The notes under the pieces are model-generated. The model was not told the DNA's origin. It ran no database searches and was given only the letters and a program-made list of their open reading frames with translations. From a bacterium (GTDB lineage Bacteria; Cyanobacteriota; Vampirovibrionia; Obscuribacterales; JAKAZS01), in NCBI GenBank assembly GCA_021815785.1, contig JAKAZS010000004.1, positions 58-64,057 of the forward strand: DNA of 64,000 bases. The letters run 5' to 3'. Both the position numbers and the translations under genes were made by a program. The first letter of the stretch is position 1. Each line of letters starts with the position of its first letter. Shown here one piece after another: positions 879-49,566 of this stretch.

Positions 879-896
879 TTTGCCAAAAACAGACTA
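879..896. repeat. short intergenic repeat TTTGCCAAAAACAGACTA (identical to 48514-48531)
   Basis: Exact 18-mer match; it lies 24 nt downstream of the recR stop. Confidence 0.6.
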
Positions 897-8452: not shown

Positions 8453-8507
8453 TATGTAAGGATAAAGTAAAAATACTCACATCAATAATTCAAGGTAAAT
8501 AATTTAA

Positions 8508-9848
8508 ATGAGCGTAACTGAATCAACATTAATTGATAGAATTCCACCCCAATCCTTAGAAGCTGAACAAGCTGTACTAGGATCATTATTAATTAGCGAA
8601 GATGCCTTAGCTCGTGTACTCGATCATCTACAACCGGAATTTTTCTATAAGAAATCACATCAGTTAATTTTTTCCAGCATGTTAGATTTATATGAAAAAC
8701 ATGAACCGATAGACATGGTTACCATTTCAGAGAATCTTAAGAACAAAGGCCTGCTTGAACAAGTTGGTGACCGCAAATATATTAGTGAATTAGCCTATCA
8801 AGTATCAACATCAGCAAATGTTGAATACTATGCTAAAATTGTTCAGGAAAAATCAACGTTGCGCAGCCTAGCCAAAGCCGGATCGGAAATAGCTGGTTAC
8901 GCTTTTGATACCAATGACGCAGATGAAGCTCTGGACAAGGCTGAGCATGTGATTTTCACGCTAGCTCAAAGACGCAATATGCAACAGTTAGTGCATATTA
9001 AAGATGTTGTTGAAGAATCCTTCCACAAAATTGAACAACGCTGGGAAAATCGTGATTCACTTTCAGGTCTGGGCTCAGGCTTTTATGACTTAGATGCCTT
9101 AACATCAGGATTTCAGCCATCTGATTTAATTATTATCGCAGCTAGGCCTTCGATGGGTAAAACCGCTTTTTGTTTAAATATTGCCCAGGAAATTGCTTGC
9201 GACCGCAAAATTCCTGTTGCCGTATTTAGCCTAGAAATGTCCCGCGAACAACTTGTCCAAAGAATGCTCTGCGCTGAGGCTCAAGTTGATGCTGGGCGCG
9301 TGCGCACTGGTCATCTGCATACCAACGATTTTACCAGATTATCGCAAGCTATGGGTAAATTAGCCGAAGCCCCCATATTTATAGATGATTCAGCGCTAAT
9401 TAATGCCTTGGAAATTAGAGCTAAAGCTCGCAGGCTTAAGGCTGAAATGAAAGGTTTAGGCCTTATAATCATTGACTACATCCAGTTAATGCAAGGCCGC
9501 AAACAGTCTGATAATCGAGTTCAGGAAATATCGGAAATATCGCGAGGCTTAAAAACTTTGGCCCGAGAATTAGAAGTTCCAGTTATTGCCCTATCACAAT
9601 TATCCAGAGCGGTCGAGGCCAGGCAAAATAAGCGACCAATGTTATCTGACCTACGCGAATCAGGAGCAATAGAACAAGATGCTGATATGGTAATGTTTAT
9701 TTATCGTGATGAGTACTACAATGCTGATACGGAAAAGCGTGGCGAAGCTGAAATCATTATCGCTAAACATCGTAATGGTCCTACTGGCACGGTAGATTTA
9801 ATTTTTCAATCAAATATCACTAAATTTGTCAATAAATCGCAAGGCTAA
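8508..9848 (+). CDS. dnaB: replicative DNA helicase DnaB
   Basis: N-terminal PPQSLEAEQAVLGSLL, Walker A ARPSMGKTAF, IIIDYIQLM, and LSQLSR..E.R. No intein is visible. Confidence 0.95.
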   Translation: MSVTESTLIDRIPPQSLEAEQAVLGSLLISEDALARVLDHLQPEFFYKKSHQLIFSSMLDLYEKHEPIDMVTISENLKNKGLLEQVGDRKYISELAYQVSTSANVEYYAKIVQEKSTLRSLAKAGSEIAGYAFDTNDADEALDKAEHVIFTLAQRRNMQQLVHIKDVVEESFHKIEQRWENRDSLSGLGSGFYDLDALTSGFQPSDLIIIAARPSMGKTAFCLNIAQEIACDRKIPVAVFSLEMSREQLVQRMLCAEAQVDAGRVRTGHLHTNDFTRLSQAMGKLAEAPIFIDDSALINALEIRAKARRLKAEMKGLGLIIIDYIQLMQGRKQSDNRVQEISEISRGLKTLARELEVPVIALSQLSRAVEARQNKRPMLSDLRESGAIEQDADMVMFIYRDEYYNADTEKRGEAEIIIAKHRNGPTGTVDLIFQSNITKFVNKSQG

Positions 9849-40076: not shown

Positions 40077-40409
40077 AGCGTTTATTTATAAACATTTTTA
40101 ATATAGACAAACTTAAATCTTTAAAGTTCATTTGAATGACTTTTTTAATGTCATACAACCCTCTGTCTAAGCTAGATTATCCAATTAAATAAAATTATGA
40201 CATCAGCATTTAGAAAAAAACACCGTTTTATCCTAAAATTTAGCTTAGTTTTTCAGCGTCAACTATCTAGTAAAAACTTGTCGCATCTTTTATGACAATC
40301 TCAGATTAACAAATTATAATCCAGAGTCGCTAAACTCAAAAACTGTAATATTCAAAATACAAAATTCAACCTCAATTGTTTCACAATAATTGCAAAAGTT
40401 TCTAAAAAA

Positions 40410-41852
40410 CTAACCCCAATCACCAGAGCCGCCGAAGTCCATGTCACCAGAGCCATAGCCTTCGTCAGCACCGCCAAAATCGATGTCAGCATTACCATAG
40501 TCATCGCTAGAAACGTTATCATCTTTATAAATTCCATCATAGTCATTGCCTAGATCATTAACACTACCAGAACCACTATCTAGATAATTGCTATGTTGAT
40601 TAAAATCGTTAAAATCAAATTGGTCAATATTGTTATAATCATAGCCGTCGCTTATCATATTATTTTGAATATCTGATAACTTACGGTTTAATTCAAATTG
40701 ATTTAAAAGAGTCACGATCGACAAAGCTTGACCAGCCATATTCAAGACATTGTTTGAACTATAGGTGTCTGTATTTATCCAGCCTGGAACATTGTAGTTA
40801 TTATTTGACGCAGTTTCAGAAACATTTGCTTGATTATTCTTGTTAACTAGAAGGCTATCATTTAATTTTTTACTTGCCTTTTCCTCAATTTCTAAAGAGC
40901 TTTCTGACGTAACCGATGTTTTGGTACCAGTTAACTTTTCAACTTTATTTAAATAGTAACCCAAGTCTTTGTTTATAATAATAAGCATATTAATTAGCCT
41001 GGGTATATCTTTCTCCAAATTAGCATAATCGCGTTTATTGTACTTTTCTAAAATACTCGAATAACTCTTGTTTATAATATTTATATTGGCATAAAATAAG
41101 GTTAAATTTTGTGTCAACTCAGCGTTTTCTTTAATGTCAATATATTCACTAGCTTGGCTTAATTTATCGATATTTTGAAAAACCACGGTTATATTTTTTT
41201 TTAATTGGTCAATTTTGTAGTCATATATTTTAGTTTTATTTTCATGCCTTTTTTCTGAGTATATTTTATAAATAATAAAAGCGATGACAATAAATATAAA
41301 AACAGGTAAAAAGTCAAAACCAGAGACCCCATTATTATAATTCGTAGGCTCTGAACTAGGCGCAGAATTAGTTGCAGAATTAAAAGTGGTATCAGAACTA
41401 TGCACAATGTGGTTACTAGTCAGTTTAATGTTCTCAATTTTATTATTAATAGCTTTTAGCAAATTTTTTATAGCCAAATATAAATTACCTTCTTTTATAT
41501 TTGGTAAAAATTCTTTTTTTAAAATATTTTGCTTTAAGAAATCGTTATCTATATAGTTTTCATGTAAAAATTTACTGGTTATTACTTTAACCTTAGCCGA
41601 CCTTAAATCTATAACCATTAATAACCCACGTCCGCGTAAATGCCAGTTTTTTGCCAAAGCGATGGCTAAATCATCTATATTCTGACAAAGATAAGATTTT
41701 GGCAAAATAATCACTTTTGGACTGTAAGAGAAGTTAGTACAGGTTTTTGACAAATCTTGTAGTTCATCTTTAGTTAAATTGTGCCCATAGTCAATTATGG
41801 TGTCTTTAGGACATGATTTAGGTATAAAACTGGGAATATTAAAAACAGGCAA
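40410..41852 (-). CDS. TPM-domain (YgcG/TLP18.3-like) protein with a central transmembrane helix, a helical region and an acidic Gly/Asp/Tyr tail
   Basis: TPM-like IIDYGHNLTKDELQDL...VIILPKSY...LAKNWHLRGRGLLMVIDLRSAKVKV, TM helix FLPVFIFIVIAFIIYKIY, and tail GGADEGYGSGDMDFGGSGDWG. The only available start is TTG at 41852. Confidence 0.55.
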   Translation of the reverse strand: MPVFNIPSFIPKSCPKDTIIDYGHNLTKDELQDLSKTCTNFSYSPKVIILPKSYLCQNIDDLAIALAKNWHLRGRGLLMVIDLRSAKVKVITSKFLHENYIDNDFLKQNILKKEFLPNIKEGNLYLAIKNLLKAINNKIENIKLTSNHIVHSSDTTFNSATNSAPSSEPTNYNNGVSGFDFLPVFIFIVIAFIIYKIYSEKRHENKTKIYDYKIDQLKKNITVVFQNIDKLSQASEYIDIKENAELTQNLTLFYANINIINKSYSSILEKYNKRDYANLEKDIPRLINMLIIINKDLGYYLNKVEKLTGTKTSVTSESSLEIEEKASKKLNDSLLVNKNNQANVSETASNNNYNVPGWINTDTYSSNNVLNMAGQALSIVTLLNQFELNRKLSDIQNNMISDGYDYNNIDQFDFNDFNQHSNYLDSGSGSVNDLGNDYDGIYKDDNVSSDDYGNADIDFGGADEGYGSGDMDFGGSGDWG

Positions 41853-42291
41853 ATTCTTACATCAACTAGACTAGACAACCAACATTGTATGTCATAAAGT
41901 TCATTTATTTTGTACATTTAATAATAAAAAAACGATTACTACTGGATTTTGCTTACTCTACCATAATCGCATTAACACGTGTTAATAATTACTTTAGTTT
42001 TTTAAATCTTTTCTTTGCATATTAGATATTTTTCATAGATTTAATAGCTTTAAGTTAAAGAATTATAAGCTACTTGCCTAGTTTTCTTAGGTTGGTCACT
42101 CAACAGCTGTTTTCTTACAAAATTCCTTGCATAATTTCCAATTTAAGCTATTATAAATTTAAGATATTAAAGTTTATATGCTATTTATTTTAAGTCATAT
42201 AAATTTTTGCTATCTATCTGGAAACAAAATTAATTATAACTAATTTCTTTAAACAAAACACAATAAATAGCTAACTAAATGGAGTAGTTAA

Positions 42292-44148
42292 ATGTTTAAC
42301 ACCACAAATTTAAATCAAAAAATTTCTAATAAAACTCATACTGCCACCAAAAGCTCTAATTCATTATTTACAAATAATGTTCTTCATCACGGCTTAATCT
42401 TAAACATTATAACACCAATAAATAGGGTAGAAAACATTATTAATACAGTAAGTAAAAGAAATAACCCTAAACCTGTTTTACCAGTTGCGCCAGAATATAT
42501 AGTAAAAATCATAAAAGCCTATTTAACTGCCTGGTTTACCCAAAATAGAACTGGCGGCATAAGTATGATTATTACTTATGTTATAGCTGGTTTAATTATC
42601 CAGCAAGCTTTATGCATTAGTGCAGCAGCTAGTGGATTTAATTTATGTTTAATTAGCAATAAAACCAGGCAGAATCTACCTCTAAACGATAATGCCGGAA
42701 GTATTGGTTATTTTGAGCCACCAAATTCCGATCAATCTGTATTAGCTAAGAATACGGCGACTAGCTTTTCGACATTTAAGGGTGATAATTCACTAACTAA
42801 AGGTTATCAATTACCCAAATCAACACATGACGCTGGTTTAGTGGTGCGTAATCCTGAATTTGCCAATTTAATAAAATCTAGTTATGATAAAACCAGTTTA
42901 GCTGAAATCAGTAAAATCTTAGCAGCAAAAAAAACCGTACAATTAAATAGATATGAAGGTGGGGGGCATTCAGCTGTCACCATTGTCGATAAACCCAGCC
43001 TAGAATCAGCCATTGGGGGTTTACTAATTTTACAATGGGACCGCGATAATATCATGCAAGCTTTAGCTGAATATCAAGCTAAATTTAATTCCAATCTAAA
43101 AGATTTTAATATAGGTGAGGACGCATGGAAAAAAGGCTTATCGTCTTCGCTTAAATATCAAATGAAGCATCAGTTTCGTATTATTGATGTAATAGATGGT
43201 AAAACCAGTGTCAGCGACATTAACGCTCGACCCCATATTCGCTATATTGGGGTTGGCCTAGAAGATATTAATGATCCCTGGGGCAATGCCCAAAATGATG
43301 CTTTGTCCTCAATTAATTATTTATTATTTCATGCAATGAATGAAAATCATTTAAATATTGAAGACCCCTTAATTGCACCATATGCTAACAATTACGCAGT
43401 ACTTTTACCTAATTATTTTAAAACTGTTCGTGTATGGGAAGACTGGGATTTTGGCGCCTGGGAAGATAAGCGAGCTGAACACGCCTCTTCAATAGGCATG
43501 GCCTTAGCTTGTTTGCGAGAGCAAAAAACTTATGTTGATAAACATGGTTCATTAAGCTATATAACTAAAGGTAAAACTTATTCAGTCAATTCAAATGATT
43601 TAAATGATTTAATCACTAAATGTGAAAACAAATTAAAAACTTTATTACCAGACGAATTTACAAAAAGCGATGATAACAGCATTAGACATGTTGATGCAGC
43701 TTTAGTAAATCCACTTTATTTAAGTGCTTTATCACATAGAGCCTTACTTGATGATTCCATGAATTCAACCATAATTAATAATATTCAAAATCAACTTATG
43801 GGTGATATAGGTATACGTCGTTATCCTGGCGATGTTTGGGATGGCAGGGTTAATCGCAATGAATTGCCCCCAAGTATGTCGGCTCAATGGACTCATGTGT
43901 CACCGATGATTAGCGTCATATTAGCCGATATGTATGCTAGAACTAAGAATCCAGAATTATTAAAAGGCCAAATATTTCACTTTAATCGAGCTCTAGCAGC
44001 CATAGATGCTGATAGAAAAATACCCGAGGCTTACATTAGAGATAAAGATAACACCAAGTGGATTGCTGATGACAATAAACCTTTAGCTTGGTCACAAGCC
44101 AGTTTAATCGCAGCTCTAATTGCCATGCATCAAAGCATTGGTCCGTAA
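42292..44148 (+). CDS. GH15-family (glucoamylase / phosphorylase-kinase alpha-beta-like) protein, short paralog
   Basis: WGNAQNDALSSINYLLFHA and WEDWDFGAWEDKRAEHASSIGMALACL resemble the PHK-alpha/beta-type GH15 (alpha/alpha)6 domain, as does RRYPGDVWDG. The N-terminus carries a partial copy of the shared module. Confidence 0.7.
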   Translation: MFNTTNLNQKISNKTHTATKSSNSLFTNNVLHHGLILNIITPINRVENIINTVSKRNNPKPVLPVAPEYIVKIIKAYLTAWFTQNRTGGISMIITYVIAGLIIQQALCISAAASGFNLCLISNKTRQNLPLNDNAGSIGYFEPPNSDQSVLAKNTATSFSTFKGDNSLTKGYQLPKSTHDAGLVVRNPEFANLIKSSYDKTSLAEISKILAAKKTVQLNRYEGGGHSAVTIVDKPSLESAIGGLLILQWDRDNIMQALAEYQAKFNSNLKDFNIGEDAWKKGLSSSLKYQMKHQFRIIDVIDGKTSVSDINARPHIRYIGVGLEDINDPWGNAQNDALSSINYLLFHAMNENHLNIEDPLIAPYANNYAVLLPNYFKTVRVWEDWDFGAWEDKRAEHASSIGMALACLREQKTYVDKHGSLSYITKGKTYSVNSNDLNDLITKCENKLKTLLPDEFTKSDDNSIRHVDAALVNPLYLSALSHRALLDDSMNSTIINNIQNQLMGDIGIRRYPGDVWDGRVNRNELPPSMSAQWTHVSPMISVILADMYARTKNPELLKGQIFHFNRALAAIDADRKIPEAYIRDKDNTKWIADDNKPLAWSQASLIAALIAMHQSIGP

Positions 44149-44157
44149 ATTTAATTT

Positions 44158-47019
44158 TTACTGTTTTTCCAGTACAATTGCTGACCGAGGTGCAATGCTA
44201 ATATTTTGTGGTGATAATCCGGGGTCTGGGTTACTATCAGTATTTATTAATGGCTTCCAATTGCCAGGTGGCAATTGGATATTTAACGGTTCCCAATAAC
44301 TGTTAAATGCTACGTACATTGGTTTTGCTGATGGAGGGTTTAACTGCCAGGATAAAAACCGGGTATCGCTAGAAAAATCAGGTTTAAATGGGATAGTACC
44401 ATGATAAATTATGCCGTCTTGAGCCACATTGCCAATATTATGAGTTTTGCGAATTTCAATAAGTTTCTTGGCAAAATCATGAATAATTTTAGCATTAGGA
44501 TCATCGGTCAAATTCTGCCACGGCATATTGTTTAACGTCCTTTGATCGTAGGCGTTATTGTCACCTAAAGCAGTGCGTCTTATTTCATCACCGTATACCA
44601 TCATCGGTGTCCCTTTAGAAACCAGAAGCAGGGTCAAAAAGTTTTTAATCTGTTTCATTCTTAAAGCTTCAATTGCTTGTTTTTGATCTTCCGGTATATT
44701 GGCATCTTTAAGCTCACCTTCATAACCGCTATTCCAGCTATAATTATTATCAATCCCATCAGTATTGTTTTGGCCATTTTCAATATTGTGTTTGAAATTA
44801 TATGAAACCAGGTCATTCAACGTAAATCCGTCATGAGCGGTTATAAAATTTACCGAATACCTACCCAAGCTATTATTAAACATATCTGGAGATCCAGCAA
44901 TTCTTTGGGCTAACGTTCCGACCTGACCAGCATCGCTTTTAACAAACTGGCGTGCAGTATCACGAAAATTGCCGTTCCATTCTGACCACAATTTATTGTA
45001 AAAATTTCCCAAGTAATACTGATCAACACTCCATGGTTCAGCAATTAATTTTACCCTGGATAATACAGGATCATTAGCAATAGCCTGTAAAACAGGCGAA
45101 TCAGCCATTTGCGTATTATCTGGCATATATTTAAAAATGGGCGCCTCATCAAAGCGGAAACCATCAACGTGCATTTTATCTACCCAGTATCTTAAACTGT
45201 CGATAACATATTTTAATGTTTCGGGATTATTTGTGTTAACAGTATTGCCACATCCGGTATGGTCAATGTATTGGCTTTGATCAGCGGGATTAAGCAAATA
45301 ATAGCCTTCATTATCAAGCCCTTTAAAATTAACCGTTGGGCCAAACTGATTGCCTTCACGCGTATGGTTAAAGACCACGTCTAAAATTACTTCCATATTA
45401 TTTTTATGGAATTCTTTAACCATCCCCTTAAATTCATCGATTTCTTTGCCCATATTTTCAGTGGCAAATCTTGGTTCAGGAGCAAAATGGCTGGTCGGAT
45501 TATAGCCCCAGTTATCAATTAATTGTTGACCAGTAATTGGGTCAACCCGGTTGGCATCAACACGATCAAATTTAAATATCGGCATAATTTCCACAGCCGT
45601 TACGCCAAGGTCTTTTAAATAAGGTATTTTGGATACTAACCCCTTATACGTGCCTTTAATAGATCCCAGACTTTCGTCAGCATTGGTAAAAGAGCGTAAA
45701 TTTAATTCATATATGATACTATCATTCATCGCAATATTAGGATGTTTATCATTTTCCCAATTATAATCGTCTTTTACCGCAATGGCCTTGGGCATGGCAC
45801 CAAAATCATTGATATTGCTTATAAGCTTATCACGGTTTGGGTTATTTGGATTGCTATTATCGTAACCCAAAATATCTGACGTGTCAGGATTATCACCAGT
45901 TATAGCCTTTGCGTAAGGGTCAAGCAAAGCTTTATTAGGATTAAACCGGCTGCCGTCCAATTGTGGATCATAGCTGCCATCAGCACTATATAAATAAAGG
46001 CTGCCAGCAGGCAAATCATTGACGAACGAATGCCAAACACCATTGGTCTGAGCCATGGGATAAGTTTGATACGCAACTTTATCATTAGCATTGTGGAATA
46101 ACAGCAAATCCATGCTGGTTGCCTTAGGTGAATAAATGGCAAAATTAATCCCATTATCTAAAACCGTCGCTCCTAAAGGTTGAGCCGAACCAGCAGTAAT
46201 CTGTTCGCCCACAGCTTTGCTTAAATCATTACCTACGGTCACATCAGCTTGGGGTCTGGTTAAATCTTTAAATTTTGCCAATTTTGTAACACTATCATTG
46301 GCCTGATTATCGGTAACAGGGTCATGACTAAAACCAATTTTTTGGAAAGTAACGCCGGCCAATTTTTGCAGACCTGGCAATGCAACGTTCATCAAGCCGC
46401 CAGAAGCCATCGCTGAAATAGTGCCTTCCATGTTGATTGAATTTTGGTAATTATTAGTAAGGTTAGGCAATAATGTTGAAGCGCTATAATTAACAAATCC
46501 ACCGGCAGCTCCAGTTAGCGCTCTTGAAGAACCTCTGGCAATCACATTTAAATACCCATTGTTTAAATCAATTGTACTAGATAATTTGTTCCCACCTTCA
46601 AATACAGCAAAACTTGCCATGGTTCCTAAGGCATTGGCAATCCGGGTCTGGTTTTTGCCTGGTTTTTGTGCAGCCTCATATAAGCCAGCGCCAGCTATCT
46701 GACACCGGCTTTCGTTAGTTAGGATACTAGCCGTAGCCTCATCCAGTTTTAATCCAGTTGACAGTTCGGTCATACCTAATTTTAGCGCTGCTCCGGCCAT
46801 GACAAACGGCAATATTGCTCCTGTAGTTTGGCTTATGTTTTGCGTAAACCATTTAAGACTACCTGTTTGGGATTTTGCTACCGGCAAATTGGCGTCATTT
46901 TTCCCAGTTATTGTATCATATACTTTTATTACTCCCGATCCGTTTATAAATGGATTCACTACATTTTTAAGAACCCAATCGGACTTATCTTTAGTTTGAG
47001 TAATACTTATTTTATCCAT
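44158..47019 (-). CDS. glgX: GlgX/isoamylase-type glycogen debranching enzyme (GH13 with CBM48) carrying a ~270-aa N-terminal extension
   Basis: CBM48-like GATVLDNGINFAIYSP...GVWH, and GH13 conserved regions DVVFNHT, GFRFDEA, AEPWS and FITAHDGF. Confidence 0.85.
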   Translation of the reverse strand: MDKISITQTKDKSDWVLKNVVNPFINGSGVIKVYDTITGKNDANLPVAKSQTGSLKWFTQNISQTTGAILPFVMAGAALKLGMTELSTGLKLDEATASILTNESRCQIAGAGLYEAAQKPGKNQTRIANALGTMASFAVFEGGNKLSSTIDLNNGYLNVIARGSSRALTGAAGGFVNYSASTLLPNLTNNYQNSINMEGTISAMASGGLMNVALPGLQKLAGVTFQKIGFSHDPVTDNQANDSVTKLAKFKDLTRPQADVTVGNDLSKAVGEQITAGSAQPLGATVLDNGINFAIYSPKATSMDLLLFHNANDKVAYQTYPMAQTNGVWHSFVNDLPAGSLYLYSADGSYDPQLDGSRFNPNKALLDPYAKAITGDNPDTSDILGYDNSNPNNPNRDKLISNINDFGAMPKAIAVKDDYNWENDKHPNIAMNDSIIYELNLRSFTNADESLGSIKGTYKGLVSKIPYLKDLGVTAVEIMPIFKFDRVDANRVDPITGQQLIDNWGYNPTSHFAPEPRFATENMGKEIDEFKGMVKEFHKNNMEVILDVVFNHTREGNQFGPTVNFKGLDNEGYYLLNPADQSQYIDHTGCGNTVNTNNPETLKYVIDSLRYWVDKMHVDGFRFDEAPIFKYMPDNTQMADSPVLQAIANDPVLSRVKLIAEPWSVDQYYLGNFYNKLWSEWNGNFRDTARQFVKSDAGQVGTLAQRIAGSPDMFNNSLGRYSVNFITAHDGFTLNDLVSYNFKHNIENGQNNTDGIDNNYSWNSGYEGELKDANIPEDQKQAIEALRMKQIKNFLTLLLVSKGTPMMVYGDEIRRTALGDNNAYDQRTLNNMPWQNLTDDPNAKIIHDFAKKLIEIRKTHNIGNVAQDGIIYHGTIPFKPDFSSDTRFLSWQLNPPSAKPMYVAFNSYWEPLNIQLPPGNWKPLINTDSNPDPGLSPQNISIAPRSAIVLEKQ

Positions 47020-47294
47020 TATATGCTCACTAATGATAGATTGATTTAAAAAATTAGAATGACTACCTGGAATTATTTTATTTAAGATTTATTACTGTGT
47101 AACTAGTGTAAATACGAAAAATGACTTTTAAAATCATTAATTTTGCCAAAATATTTTTTGCTAATAATTAGATATAATCATATTTATATACAATTTATTC
47201 GCTGCCAAAAAAAAATCACAAATTATAATTATGCCGACGATTCCGCTTAGCAATCGCTCAATTAGACATCCGGTTTCGTAAGGTGAGACGATTA

Positions 47295-48305
47295 TCAATC
47301 ATGGCTATGTCGGTGGTGGATATCACTTATATGTTCATGGGAATGCTTTAGAGCATCATGGCTGTGTTCATGCGTGTGAAACGCAACTATGCCAGTATGC
47401 TGATGATTATGATGTCCGTCAGTGTGAATGTGAAAATGCGTGTGTGTCATACTTTCATGCCAATGGCTATGTCCGTGCATATCTTTAAGAATCAAATATA
47501 AAGATCCCATAATTAACAAAGTTGCTAAAATTTGGGTAAGATTTAAAACTTCATGAAATATCCAAACCGAAAATATTAATCCCCAAATTGACGAGGTCGC
47601 AAAAATCAATTGCGCACGTATCGCTCCAAGATTTTGACTTGCTCGAATATAAAGTATGAGACTAACACCATAGCTAAAAAAACCAATTAACATAAAATAT
47701 AAAGAATTTAACCCAAAAATCATATCTTTAAAAAAACATATACCTAGTAATAAATTAATAATGGCAGCAGTAAAACCTTTAAGAAAAACCAGTTGTGAAG
47801 GCTTTATACTATCAATGACTGATGCCAAATTATTGTCAATTGCATAAAACAGACAAGCTAAAATAATCATCATATAATTAAGTAAATTGTCGATATTAAA
47901 ATCAATATGCGTAAACATGGCTAAGGCTATAAATACACCAATTACACCAACATACGATTTCCGCGTCAAATGCTCTTTAAAAAGCAACAAGGCTATCAAT
48001 ATTGTAAAAACCGGTTCAAGATTAAACCAAATTGATACATTCATTGCTGATATTTTTTTTAAAGCTGCTAATAAACATATTGGAGCCAGAATTCCTCCAG
48101 ATAATATCAGTAAAATAATGTTTCGATTTAATTGCTTGTAAATATTGAAATTTGTTTTTAAAGTCAAAAGTGTACTAAAACTAGCACCAAGATACAATAA
48201 ACCGGACATGGTAAACGTTGAAAAATCATTAATAATTAATTTGCACAAAACCGGACTAATACCAAATAGAATCGCCGATAAGATGATATTTATAAAATGG
48301 ATCAT
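47295..48305 (-). CDS. EamA/DMT-superfamily transporter with a His-rich C-terminal tail
   Basis: About 10 hydrophobic helices in two EamA-like halves. The tail is HGHSHWHESMTHTHFHIHTDGHHNHQHTG..HTHEHSHD..HSHEH..IHHRHSHD. Confidence 0.75.
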   Translation of the reverse strand: MIHFINIILSAILFGISPVLCKLIINDFSTFTMSGLLYLGASFSTLLTLKTNFNIYKQLNRNIILLILSGGILAPICLLAALKKISAMNVSIWFNLEPVFTILIALLLFKEHLTRKSYVGVIGVFIALAMFTHIDFNIDNLLNYMMIILACLFYAIDNNLASVIDSIKPSQLVFLKGFTAAIINLLLGICFFKDMIFGLNSLYFMLIGFFSYGVSLILYIRASQNLGAIRAQLIFATSSIWGLIFSVWIFHEVLNLTQILATLLIMGSLYLILKDMHGHSHWHESMTHTHFHIHTDGHHNHQHTGIVAFHTHEHSHDALKHSHEHISDIHHRHSHD

Positions 48306-48349
48306 CTTTAATTATCTCGCCTTAATATCCTGCATTAATTCTAACAAAT
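48240..48349. repeat. 110-bp direct repeat, copy A
   Basis: Manual alignment with 49457-49566 gives 108/110 identical bases. It covers the first 22 codons of the DMT gene, a 6-nt spacer and 44 nt matching the 3' end of the 310-aa gene. Confidence 0.9.
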
Positions 48350-48513
48350 CCTCCTAAAACGGATCAACCTAAGCCTTTAATAAGTCCACCGGCTTATTAA
48401 GGTAGACTTTTAAATTAACGGGACTTGTACGATATTTTCAGATAAACCAATTAAATACAAGTATTATAGCCATTATAACACATAGCATTTACAGATTATT
48501 AGTTGTCCGTGTT

Positions 48514-48531
48514 TTTGCCAAAAACAGACTA
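48514..48531. repeat. short intergenic repeat TTTGCCAAAAACAGACTA (identical to 879-896)
   Basis: Exact 18-mer shared with 879-896. A 16-nt related copy, TAATTTGCCAAAAACA, follows at 48536-48551 and matches 876-891. Confidence 0.6.
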
Positions 48532-48661
48532 AATTTAATTTGCCAAAAACAAAATAATTAATAATGCCTTTAGTGCTTGGCGACCAATTTTAAACTTAGT
48601 TGATAAAATAAAATAAGTTTTTTTATCAATTAAAATATTAATTTAATAATCGAAAAAATTT

Positions 48662-49384
48662 TTAGCGAGTTAAATCAAAAAAATCATTTAATATTTTTTT
48701 GTTTGAACTAATGCCTAAGTATTCATTATAAGAATTAACCTGATGAAATGTTTGAAGATTTGGTTTGGTTATATTAGTCTGTAATTTTTCTATAGATCTT
48801 GTAGTTATAAGTTCATTAATTGTACTTCTTTCATTTTCACGTCGTTGAAATATAAAATTTAATTCAAGAATTAAGCCTGGCATAATAGGAAATCCATTTA
48901 ATTTAGAATGTAATTTTATAAAATTAGGATTAATGTTATCATTGTCACTAATAATTAATTCATTAAAAATGTTTACTTTAGATTTTAAAGTATCGGGATA
49001 TTTAAATTTATAAACTATGCCAGAATAATTTTTATTCTTATAAATATTTTTTTTTTGCCAGTAATCAGGATTTTTTATTAATTTTCCACCATTTACTAAA
49101 AAGCTTATAATTCCAAAACCTTGTGGATCTTGAACATTGTTAAGTGGAGTTGCAAAATAAACCTTACTTTTATGATTAATATAATACACTACATAGTCTG
49201 GTTTTTGGCAATAGACTTGAGTTTGTAGTTTCGTATTTAATAAATTAAACTGATTAGCTGAAAGATAAAGGACATGTAGGCCAAATAATTTAGTTTCTTG
49301 TTTTATTAAATAAGAATTTTTAGCTAAAACTGATAATGGGCTAAAAAATAATGAAACGATAAATATTAAAATTAATTTAGACAT
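48662..49384 (-). CDS. hypothetical secreted protein (240 aa), Asn/Lys-rich
   Basis: Signal peptide MSKLILIFIVSLFFSPLSVLA; no recognisable domain. It sits inside the repeat-bounded insertion. Confidence 0.5.
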   Translation of the reverse strand: MSKLILIFIVSLFFSPLSVLAKNSYLIKQETKLFGLHVLYLSANQFNLLNTKLQTQVYCQKPDYVVYYINHKSKVYFATPLNNVQDPQGFGIISFLVNGGKLIKNPDYWQKKNIYKNKNYSGIVYKFKYPDTLKSKVNIFNELIISDNDNINPNFIKLHSKLNGFPIMPGLILELNFIFQRRENERSTINELITTRSIEKLQTNITKPNLQTFHQVNSYNEYLGISSNKKILNDFFDLTR

Positions 49385-49433
49385 ACTTTTAATTAAGCAA
49401 TATTAGGTTTATTTTTGATTAAAAGATTATAGC

Positions 49434-49457
49434 AGTAGTTTTTATATTAAAACTACT
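49434..49457 (-). terminator. stem-loop at the insertion boundary
   Basis: AGTAGTTTT / AAAACTACT 9-bp stem with a 6-nt loop. On the minus strand it is followed by the moderately U-rich GCTATAATCTTTTAATC. Confidence 0.3.
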
Positions 49458-49522
49458 TTGCACAAAACCGGACTAATACCAAATAGAATTGCCGATAAGA
49501 AGATATTTATAAAATGGATCAT
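49442..49522 (-). pseudogene. orphan 5' fragment of the DMT transporter gene, created by the duplication
   Basis: Encodes MIHFINIFLSAILFGISPVLCK, which matches the first 22 residues of the 47295-48305 gene with one substitution. It then diverges and stops after 4 more codons. Confidence 0.8.
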
Positions 49523-49566
49523 CTTTAATTATCTCGCCTTAATATCCTGCATTAATTCTAACAAAT
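49457..49566. repeat. 110-bp direct repeat, copy B
   Basis: See copy A. Here the repeat holds the genuine 3' end of the 310-aa gene plus the orphan DMT 5' fragment. Confidence 0.9.

What the first reader, a model, noticed from the sequence alone, without database searches (positions are those of the whole stretch)
48240..49566. 1.1 kb AT-rich insertion flanked by a 110-bp direct duplication that splits a tightly coupled gene pair
48240-48349 and 49457-49566 are 108/110 identical by manual alignment. In copy B the 310-aa gene ends (…LLELMQDIKAR stop) and, 6 nt later, an orphan 22-codon 5' fragment of the DMT transporter begins. In copy A the intact transporter gene is preceded by a dead 44-nt copy of the 3' end of the 310-aa gene. 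The ancestral state was therefore [310-aa gene]-6 nt-[DMT gene]. A 1107-bp segment (48350-49456) encoding one Asn/Lys-rich secreted protein was later inserted, duplicating 110 bp. That is far longer than transposase target-site duplications, and there is no transposase or integrase. The pattern fits Campbell-type single crossover of a circular element carrying 110 bp of homology, or a replication-slippage or template-switch event. The insert is visibly more AT-rich than its neighbours. It also carries tandem copies of a short motif found again downstream of recR.
Basis: seen in the sequence. Interest (0 to 1): 0.65.

Follow-up and report, generated by a model that had tools for sequence, protein, structure and literature searches.

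The report
Foreign gene patch with 110-bp duplication
In one mine-drainage Melainabacteria lineage, a 1.1-kb piece of another genome's gene cluster was recently pasted between two tightly coupled genes. The event duplicated 110 bp of the target, so both genes stayed intact; it is a well-documented one-off rearrangement, not a new mobile element.

Summary
Window 48240-48349 and 49457-49566 are 108/110 identical direct repeats flanking a 1107-bp insert, and it is the only such repeat in the 64 kb.

Three related populations carry the uninterrupted arrangement, 310-aa gene, 6 nt, then the EamA/DMT gene. They are about 96-97% (one) and about 93% (two) identical to this genome. The closest one has the inferred ancestral base at both sites where the two copies differ. 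The insertion is therefore real, derived and recent.

The insert is not a self-contained element.
- Its 240-aa gene belongs to a small secreted-protein family. In relatives this family sits in a tandem array after a trypsin-like protease gene.
- Its "non-coding" 3' part is a decayed relic of the convergent 153/171-aa gene that borders that array.
- It has no transposase, integrase or terminal inverted repeats, and it is single-copy.
- No donor was found. The nearest homologue is 60% identical.

The low GC matches the nearest gene-family relatives, so it is not evidence of foreign origin.

The mechanism is inferred. I favour a one-step illegitimate insertion (staggered break with fill-in, or replicative template switch). 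Campbell-type integration of a circle carrying the 110 bp is the main rival. No excised or circular forms were seen.

The parts
49457..49566 (-). Copy B of the 110-nt duplicated target (H). It holds the true 3' end of the 310-aa gene (stop 49531-49529), the 6-nt spacer, and an orphan copy of the first 22 codons of the EamA gene.
48240..48349 (-). Copy A of H. It holds a dead 38-nt copy of the 310-aa gene's 3' end with its stop (mini-ORF MQDIKAR, 48335-48312), the 6-nt spacer, and the true start of the EamA gene (ATG at 48305).
48350..49456 (-). The 1107-bp insert (F). It is absent from three related populations and single-copy in this genome.
48662..49384 (-). Intact 240-aa secreted protein gene with an N-terminal signal-peptide-like segment. 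It belongs to a small family that is tandemly arrayed in relatives. It has no Pfam, NCBIfam or PHROG match and only a weak LolA-like fold hint.
49385..49456 (-). 5' end of the insert: hairpin GTAGTTTT-AATATA-AAAACTAC (49456-49435), then an extended -10-like TGCTATAAT (49434-49426) upstream of the 240-aa gene.
   Evidence: read from sequence; fold -9.7 kcal/mol, z -2.4. The promoter is inferred.
48350..48616 (+). Decayed relic of the convergent 153/171-aa gene that borders the family's home locus in relatives. It has stops, a frameshift, an internal deletion of about 190 nt and small duplications. The C-terminal 19 codons (48551-48607) are 63% identical to the lineage C protein, and both proteins stop two codons further on.
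48514..48557 (+). Two copies, 25 nt apart, of TTTGCCAAAAACA inside the relic. 18 nt are identical to 879-896, next to recR.
48463..48480 (-). Promoter-like TGTTATAAT / TATAAT boxes inside the relic, about 165 nt upstream of the EamA start. This is a possible new promoter for EamA (inferred).
   Evidence: read from sequence
49442..49522 (-). Orphan 26-codon ORF (MIHFINIFLSAILFGISPVLCKVVLI), left coupled to the stop codon of the 310-aa gene.
49529..50461 (-). 310-aa gene (no family match), upstream partner of the split pair. It lies 18 nt downstream of an S9 peptidase gene.
47295..48305 (-). 336-aa EamA/DMT transporter gene with a His-rich C-terminal tail, downstream partner of the split pair.

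Best explanation
Shown:
- In the immediate ancestor of this Melainabacteria population, the 310-aa gene and the EamA transporter gene were adjacent, 6 nt apart, as in three related populations.
- A 1107-bp DNA fragment was then inserted. The 110 bp spanning the gene junction ended up on both sides of it.
- The fragment is a torn-out piece of the 'home locus' of a small secreted-protein family. It holds the last paralogue with its own promoter region, plus part of the convergent neighbour gene, already decayed.

Inferred:
- The fragment came from another, unsampled relative by horizontal transfer. No second copy exists in this genome, no copy is seen in its closest relative, and the nearest homologues are only 45-60% identical.
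- The mechanism was a single illegitimate event with no element-encoded enzyme. One option is a break with ends staggered by 110 nt, filled in and joined to the captured fragment. The other is a replication template switch that copied the fragment and re-entered the chromosome 110 nt behind the point of departure.
- The event survived because the duplication leaves both flanking genes complete. The 310-aa gene keeps its own end. EamA keeps 44 nt of native leader, including the upstream stop codon 6 nt before its ATG.
For: Repeat and gene content.

Empty sites:
- L005 and L018-L021, lineage B, 93.5% identical over 8.6 kb, single H at L018 8471-8580.
- X6, B-like.
- X5, where most contigs are 95-99% identical and one contig skips exactly 1217 nt, 48239 to 49457.

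Polarity and timing:
- Both copies share all 7 differences from lineage B, and each copy has one private change.
- The X5 allele carries the ancestral base at both private sites. A crossover between the present copies could not leave that haplotype on the chromosome.

Origin of the fragment:
- The family array MutS2 - trypsin-like - par1 - par2(-par3) - convergent 153/171-aa gene - glycerate kinase is seen in lineages B and C.
- The relic of the 153/171-aa gene lies 45 nt from the stop of the 240-aa gene.

Foreign or non-duplicative origin:
- Depth over the insert is close to the flanks.
- The X5 strain covers every 600-nt bin of 18 kb except the insert.
- Insert words occur only in runs of one study.
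- The best homologue is 60% identical; the one from the 93.5%-identical lineage B is 45%.

Not a mobile element:
- No Pfam, NCBIfam or PHROG hit.
- No integrase or transposase within +/-10 kb.
- No terminal inverted repeats: score 8 against a shuffle mean of 7.6.
- No Rfam hit.
Against: - The donor sequence is unknown, so junction microhomology, the signature of template switching or end joining, cannot be read. Only 1 nt is ambiguous at the right junction.
- The final structure is identical to that left by Campbell-type integration.
- The relic's indels could have formed during the event or could predate it.
- The GC of the 240-aa gene (23%) matches the family genes of the recipient's own genus (24-26%), not those of lineage C (29-34%). 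That would fit an origin inside the genus.
- Absence of the insert from X5 rests on fragmentary contigs at about 3x depth.
- Only Logan contigs were available, not raw reads, so rare excised or circular forms cannot be excluded.
Confidence: 0.5

Rival explanations
1. Campbell-type integration. A small circular molecule carrying the 1107-bp fragment plus one copy of the 110-bp junction sequence recombined with the chromosomal junction by a single RecA-dependent crossover. This duplicated the 110 bp. The structure could then excise and re-enter other strains the same way.
For: - The product, H-F-H with H equal to a contiguous piece of the empty site, is exactly what a single crossover gives.
- Single crossovers in E. 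coli with only 109-950 bp of homology produced such flanking duplications (PMC3240628).
- DprA and RecR are present in this clade, so transformation and recombination functions are plausible.
Against: - The circle would itself need two illegitimate joins (H to F at both ends) before integration. That is one more step than a direct insertion.
- No contig shows a circle junction or an empty site in the four insert-bearing runs, and depth over the insert is close to the flanks.
- The empty-site haplotype in X5 is not one that excision from the present copies would leave.
- F is a chromosomal fragment containing a pseudogene relic, not a replicon.
Confidence: 0.25
2. Remnant of a larger event. A much longer foreign or duplicated segment (merodiploid or large Campbell insert with long homology) first entered the locus. 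Deletions then trimmed it until only F and two 110-bp stubs remained, with selection keeping both flanking genes whole.
For: - The relic inside F shows an internal deletion of about 190 nt and small duplications, so deletions have acted on this DNA.
- Transformation can create large tandem duplications through alternative pairing (PMC3784515).
Against: - It needs at least three events with end points that happen to spare both ORFs.
- The two H copies differ by only 2 nt, which leaves little time.
- No intermediate forms appear in any of the assemblies.
Confidence: 0.1
3. Old insertion with concerted evolution. The insertion predates the split from the relatives. The two repeats were kept alike by gene conversion, and each empty-site lineage lost the insert by recombination between the repeats.
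For: - Direct repeats of 110 bp placed 1.1 kb apart can recombine.
- The decay of the relic looks older than 2 substitutions in 220 nt would suggest.
Against: - It requires at least two or three independent precise losses plus conversion across all 7 lineage-specific sites.
- The X5 haplotype (ancestral, ancestral) is not a product of crossover between the present copies.
- The 240-aa gene and the relic are equally distant from lineages B and C, which fits a pre-decayed foreign fragment.
Confidence: 0.05
4. Transposase-mediated insertion in trans by an IS1634/IS1549-type enzyme, which is known to make long, variable target duplications.
For: IS1549 and IS1634 generate direct repeats of 8-514 bp (PMC2266710), so 110 bp is within range.
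Against: - No transposase in the insert or within +/-10 kb.
- No terminal inverted repeats.
- Single copy.
- The content is a gene plus a pseudogene fragment of a chromosomal locus.
Confidence: 0.02
5. Assembly artefact. The repeat-flanked insert is a chimera made by the assembler.
For: Some short contigs break in or near the repeats (L003 starts at 49415, L004 ends at 48276).
Against: - k=141 contigs longer than the 110-nt repeat bridge both copies in independent samples.
- Two MAG or assembly versions differing by 17 SNPs share the structure.
- Logan contigs of four runs cross both junctions with even depth.
Confidence: 0.01

Closest known systems
Insertion-duplication by single crossover (Campbell-type integration of a circular DNA carrying a short chromosomal segment), e.g. 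E. coli conjugation recombinants with 109-950-bp lacZ duplications (PMC3240628)
   Same: Identical end product: the insert is flanked by direct copies of a contiguous target segment of about 110 bp, and no element-encoded enzyme is needed.
   Different: In the known cases the circle is an engineered plasmid that already carries the homology. Here F is a fragment of a foreign chromosome with no replicon, and no circle or excision product was seen.
Replicative template-switch or break-repair insertions with flanking micro-duplication (FoSTeS/MMBIR-type complex insertions; captured filler DNA at double-strand breaks). Recalled from my own knowledge; papers only listed.
   Same: One event inserts a copy of distant DNA and duplicates the target at the re-entry point. 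There are no terminal repeats and no recombinase.
   Different: These events are described mainly in eukaryotes and in E. coli amplification systems. The defining junction microhomology could not be tested because the donor is unknown.
IS1549 / IS1634 insertion sequences with long variable target duplications (8-514 bp; PMC2266710)
   Same: The target duplication is of comparable length.
   Different: Those are autonomous IS elements with a transposase and defined ends, present in many copies. This insert has none of those features.
Homology-facilitated illegitimate recombination and orphan-fragment arrays at T6SS/Rhs loci (PMC5361080; PMC3240628)
   Same: Foreign DNA is captured next to conserved sequence, leaving orphaned gene pieces behind.
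   Different: That process normally deletes or displaces recipient DNA rather than duplicating it. No homologous anchor between F and the target is visible here.
Integrative elements that duplicate the end of a target gene so that it stays intact (phage 21 / e14 at icd, tRNA-targeting islands). Recalled from my own knowledge.
   Same: The direct repeats contain the 3' end of a gene, so the interrupted gene remains complete.
   Different: Those elements carry an integrase and many element genes. Here there is no integrase, and the repeat also contains the 5' end of the next gene.

Membership tests
Insertion sequence / transposon (including IS1634-type with long target duplications) | Encodes, or is bounded by the ends recognised by, a transposase | tested here: not met
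   The only intact ORF, the 240-aa gene, has no Pfam, NCBIfam or PHROG hit. No transposase lies within +/-10 kb.
Insertion sequence / transposon (including IS1634-type with long target duplications) | Terminal inverted repeats | tested here: not met
   The best local alignment of the two ends scores 8 against a shuffle mean of 7.6; 232 of 500 shuffles score as well or better.
Insertion sequence / transposon (including IS1634-type with long target duplications) | Flanking target-site duplication | tested here: met
   A 110-nt direct repeat equal to the single-copy empty site.
Insertion sequence / transposon (including IS1634-type with long target duplications) | Several copies per genome or other insertion sites | tested here: not met
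   No second copy in the window. Depth over the insert is close to the flanks. Insert words occur only in one study.
Site-specific integrative element (prophage, ICE, or integrase-less derivative flanked by att sites) | Integrase or recombinase gene in or next to the element | tested here: not met
   Pfam labels of all genes within +/-10 kb show none.
Site-specific integrative element (prophage, ICE, or integrase-less derivative flanked by att sites) | Element genes (replication, transfer, phage) or their relics | tested here: not met
   The content is a chromosomal paralogue plus a relic of its chromosomal neighbour. No viral contig encodes the family.
Site-specific integrative element (prophage, ICE, or integrase-less derivative flanked by att sites) | Excised circular form and empty site coexisting in the population | tested here: inconclusive
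   No joints in the four insert-bearing runs. However, only assembled contigs were available, and they drop rare variants.
Campbell-type insertion-duplication | Flanking repeats are two copies of one contiguous target segment long enough for homologous recombination | tested here: met
   110 nt, 108/110 identical. There is a precedent with 109 bp (PMC3240628).
Campbell-type insertion-duplication | A circular donor that carries the homology together with the insert | not testable with these tools
   This needs raw reads or long reads, or a donor genome. Neither was available.
Template-switch / break-repair insertion with target duplication | Inserted DNA is a copy of sequence from elsewhere | tested here: met
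   The gene order (last paralogue, convergent 153/171-aa gene) reproduces the home locus of lineages B and C. The donor itself was not found.
Template-switch / break-repair insertion with target duplication | Microhomology of a few nt at both junctions between donor and target | not testable with these tools
   The donor flanks are unknown. Only a 1-nt ambiguity is seen at the right junction.
Integron gene cassette | attC recombination site and a nearby IntI integrase / attI | tested here: not met
   No integrase nearby. No Rfam or structured-element hit. The repeats are host coding sequence.
LolA/LolB-like fold (for the 240-aa cargo protein) | Open beta-barrel with a helical plug, supported by a confident model and fold match | tested here: inconclusive
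   Model mean pLDDT is 58.6. LolA and ependymin recur among Foldseek PDB hits, but at TM 0.2-0.3. There is no sequence hit to PDB or Pfam.

The most novel reading that the evidence does not exclude
The H-F-H structure could be a working, enzyme-free mobile cassette. Recombination between the 110-bp copies would release a 1217-bp circle carrying the gene plus one copy of the junction. After uptake, that circle could re-insert by host recombination into any related strain that has the empty junction. A single gene would then spread through a population without any transposase or integrase, always landing in the same place and never breaking the flanking genes. Alternatively, this clade might possess an unknown activity that makes target duplications of about 100 bp when capturing foreign DNA.
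Probability: 0.08. Interest if true: 0.65.

Novelty: new member of a known kind. Interest (0 to 1): 0.35.

Why it matters
This is an unusually clean natural record of how a bacterium can gain a single foreign gene with no mobile-element machinery.
- The pre-insertion allele, the product and the kind of donor locus can all be read.
- The 110-bp duplication explains why an insertion inside a translationally coupled gene pair was tolerated.
- It shows that AT-rich 'islands' flanked by long repeats need not be elements.
- It gives a concrete case for testing whether illegitimate capture or recombination-driven cassettes contribute to gene flow in uncultivated Melainabacteria.

It does not reveal a new molecular system.

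Tried and rejected
- Rfam scan of 47000-50600 at E<=1 found nothing.
- The promoter/terminator consensus scan was no better than shuffles.
- Pfam, NCBIfam and PHROG searches of the 240-aa and 310-aa proteins gave no family. Ten remote relatives from the 1.8-billion-protein search also had no Pfam.
- A PDB profile search gave no hit.
- The structure model was too weak for a firm fold call.
- JGI metagenome and IMG/VR scans for the family found no relatives.
- Metatranscriptome runs from the same study hold none of the locus, so expression could not be checked.
- The second difference between lineages A and B (about 2 kb with a TPM-domain gene, 40078-42105) was checked for the same signature. 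It has no flanking repeat, so the 110-bp duplication is not a recurrent feature here.
- The hairpin at the left end of the insert is only marginally better than shuffles and was not used as evidence.
- Low GC as a sign of foreign origin was rejected, because the lineage B family genes are equally AT-rich.
Full report
**1.

The repeat finder reports 48234-48349 and 49451-49566 as a two-copy direct repeat (116 nt, 97%). Alignment gives a sharp 110-nt core, 48240-48349 (copy A) and 49457-49566 (copy B), with two mismatches. It is the only long near-identical direct repeat in the 64-kb window.

All genes here are on the minus strand: an S9 peptidase (52378..50480), a 310-aa protein with no family match (50461..49529), a 240-aa protein (49384..48662), a 336-aa EamA/DMT transporter (48305..47295) and an isoamylase.

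- Copy B translates as ...LLELMQDIKAR, stop, two codons, then MIHFINIFLSAILFGISPVLCK, running into the insert and stopping after 26 codons.
- Copy A translates as stop, EDLLELMQDIKAR, stop, two codons, then the intact transporter.

Each repeat therefore holds the last 12 full codons (the 13th-from-last only in part) plus the stop of the 310-aa gene, the 6-nt spacer, and the first 22 codons of EamA.

**2. It is not an assembly artefact**

- The window is identical to a 196-kb MEGAHIT contig (L001).
- A MAG contig, GCA_027399115.1 (L002), differs by 17 SNPs in 20.7 kb. None is in the repeats or the insert.
- Shorter k=141 contigs from two further samples bridge copy B (L004) and copy A (L003). 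At k=141 a 110-nt repeat can only be crossed by real reads.
- Logan contigs from four runs cross both junctions. Depth over the insert is about 9, against about 10.5 on the flanks. The insert is therefore single-copy and present in essentially the whole population.

**3. Organism and relatives**

The contigs are labelled Candidatus Melainabacteria and come from mine-drainage metagenomes. I distinguish four groups:

- **Lineage A**: the window.
- **Lineage B**: GCA_027371815.1, with contigs L005 and L018-L021. It is 93.5% identical to A over 8.6 kb.
- **The X5 strain**: from another study. Most of its contigs are 95-99% identical to A.
- **Lineage C**: GCA_027399165.1 and others. Its 305-aa orthologue is 73% identical.

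**4. The empty site exists, three times**

- In B, the 22.5-kb contig L018 reads S9 peptidase, 310-aa gene, 6 nt, EamA, isoamylase, with a single H at 8471-8580.
- A B-like population in run X6 is also uninterrupted.
- In run X5, a contig about 99% identical to the window skips exactly 1217 nt, from 48239 to 49457. Across 18 kb, the insert is the only stretch that this strain does not cover.
- In C, the 305-aa gene is followed by a convergent oxidoreductase gene. The 310-EamA pairing is therefore specific to the A/B clade.

**5. Polarity and age**

Orphan gene ends can only arise from a previously contiguous junction, so the interrupted state is the derived one.

- Copies A and B share all seven differences from the B allele, and each has one private change.
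- The private change in the functional EamA start is synonymous (GCA to GCG). The one in the orphan fragment is Ile to Phe.
- The X5 allele has the ancestral base at both private sites. A crossover between the present copies would leave (A,G), (T,G) or (T,A) on the chromosome, never (A,A). X5 is therefore the pre-insertion allele or a very early revertant, not a recent excision.

The insertion thus postdates the A/B split and lies near or after the A/X5 split.

**6. What the insert is**

The 240-aa protein has only a handful of close relatives among 5.8 billion clustered proteins. An exhaustive profile search adds only remote, unannotated relatives.

In lineages B and C the family sits at one 'home locus': MutS2, a trypsin-like protease, two or three tandem paralogues, a convergent 153/171-aa gene, then glycerate kinase.

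The 312 nt of the insert that looked non-coding carry a relic of that convergent gene on the opposite strand.
- 48551-48607 reads KIINNAFSAWRPILNLVDK, against ELVNDAFAVWRPILSLVDK in C. Both proteins stop two codons further on.
- The first codons of the insert match the region around residues 40-60.
- In between there are stops, a frameshift, a deletion of about 190 nt and small duplications.

The insert is therefore a fragment torn out of a home locus. It runs from 72 nt upstream of the last paralogue to about codon 38 of the convergent neighbour.

**7. Where it came from**

- The 240-aa protein is 60% identical to the second paralogue of C. It is 48-54% identical to the third paralogue of C, and only 45% identical to the last paralogue of B, whose genome is 93.5% identical to A.
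- The relic is about 55% identical at the DNA level to both the B and the C genes.
- No second copy exists in A. No copy is seen in X5. Insert words occur only in runs of one study. No closer homologue appears in any database searched.
- With only two substitutions in 220 nt of repeat, the relic's decay must largely predate the insertion, or have arisen during it.

The most economical reading is horizontal acquisition from an unsampled relative. The caveat is that the gene's 23% GC matches the family genes of B (24-26%) and not those of C (29-34%). For the same reason, AT-richness says nothing about foreign origin.

**8. It is not a mobile element**

- No protein-family, phage-family or RNA-family hit.
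- No integrase or transposase within 10 kb on either side.
- No terminal inverted repeats.
- One copy only.
- Long target duplications are not unknown for transposases: IS1549 and IS1634 make 8-514 bp (PMC2266710).

**9. Mechanism (inferred)**

Every model must create two illegitimate joints, H-right to F-left and F-right to H-left.

- **One-step event (favoured).** Either a break staggered by 110 nt is filled in and joined to a captured fragment, or a replication template switch copies F and re-enters 110 nt behind its exit. Either one does this directly.
- **Campbell-type integration.** This gives the same product, and 109 bp of homology is known to suffice (PMC3240628). It first needs a circle containing both H and F, which means the same two joints plus a crossover. 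It is more attractive as a way for the structure to spread than as its origin.
- **Larger insertion trimmed by deletions.** This is possible but needs more steps.

These models cannot be separated without the donor sequence or raw reads. I put about 0.5 on the one-step event, 0.25 on Campbell-type integration, and 0.1 on trimming of a larger insertion.

**10. Consequences for the genes (inferred from sequence)**

- The 310-aa gene is unchanged. It is now followed by a coupled 26-codon hydrophobic orphan ORF.
- The 240-aa gene brings its own extended -10-like box, TGCTATAAT, at 49434-49426.
- EamA keeps 44 nt of native leader. This includes a 7-codon remnant ORF (MQDIKAR) that ends at the original stop, 6 nt before the EamA ATG, so termination-reinitiation coupling could persist.
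- A TGTTATAAT box inside the relic (48480-48472), or read-through from the 240-aa gene, could supply transcription.
- No consensus terminator lies within the insert.
- Expression could not be checked, because the metatranscriptomes hold no words of the locus.

**11. The cargo**

The protein has a signal-peptide-like N-terminus and is rich in Asn and Lys. The AlphaFold model is weak (pLDDT 58.6). LolA, LolB and ependymin-type folds recur among low-scoring PDB matches (TM 0.2-0.3). This is a lead and no more. Its home-locus position next to a secreted trypsin-like protease is the only functional hint.

**12. Verdict**

The interpretation needs adjusting in four ways:
- The insert is a fragment of a chromosomal gene array with a pseudogene relic, and probably foreign.
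- Its low GC is a family trait.
- There is no sign of ongoing mobility.
- The Campbell circle is one of several mechanisms that fit.

This is a neat, datable example of enzyme-free gene gain in an uncultivated lineage. It is of moderate interest and is not a new kind of system.

Noticed in passing
window 40078-42105: A segment of about 2 kb with a 480-aa TPM-domain gene (40410..41852, minus strand) is present here and in the X5 strain. In lineage B it is replaced by 72 nt (L018 14602-14673). No direct repeat longer than 10 nt flanks it, so it is a different kind of event from the 110-bp case.
   Followed up: partly
window 879-896 and 48514-48531 (second copy at 48539): An exact 18-nt match, TTTGCCAAAAACAGACTA, lies just downstream of recR and inside the pseudogene relic, where it is tandemly repeated 25 nt apart. 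The 13-nt core gives 4 matches against 0.63 expected from shuffles. Inside the relic it overlies codons homologous to 'KPKT' of the 171-aa gene. Whether it is a real shared motif or chance is unresolved.
   Followed up: partly
window 47295-47470 (3' end of the EamA gene): The EamA/DMT transporter ends in a tail of about 55 residues very rich in His (…HGHSHWHESMTHTHFHIHTDGHHNHQHTG…HRHSHD). This suggests metal binding, which would fit a mine-drainage habitat.
   Followed up: no
L007 6164-6880 with L012 1-677: In lineage C, the third tandem paralogue of the 240-aa family carries an in-frame TAA (L007 6362-6364) inside an otherwise conserved reading frame. It is either a young pseudogene or a read-through.
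   Followed up: partly
L015 7427-9324: In GCA_027338865.1, the S9 peptidase upstream of the 305-aa gene is called as two pieces (454 aa + 63 aa). The same gene is 621 aa in sister assemblies, so this is a likely frameshift or assembly error.
   Followed up: no
L015, L022-L027 (lineage C): The 305-aa orthologue is followed by a convergent Pyr_redox_2 gene, serpin, tryptophan dioxygenase and DprA instead of EamA and isoamylase. The tight 310-aa/EamA coupling is a clade-specific arrangement.
   Followed up: partly
window 42292-44148 and 53466-55652: Two GH15 (glucoamylase-type) paralogues about 75% identical at the DNA level flank the region, along with an isoamylase. In lineage B the first one is shorter (529 aa against 618 aa).
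   Followed up: no
window 40126-40326 (run X5): One X5 contig skips 199 nt here and carries 21 unplaced letters nearby. This is another small structural difference between the X5 strain and this genome.
   Followed up: no
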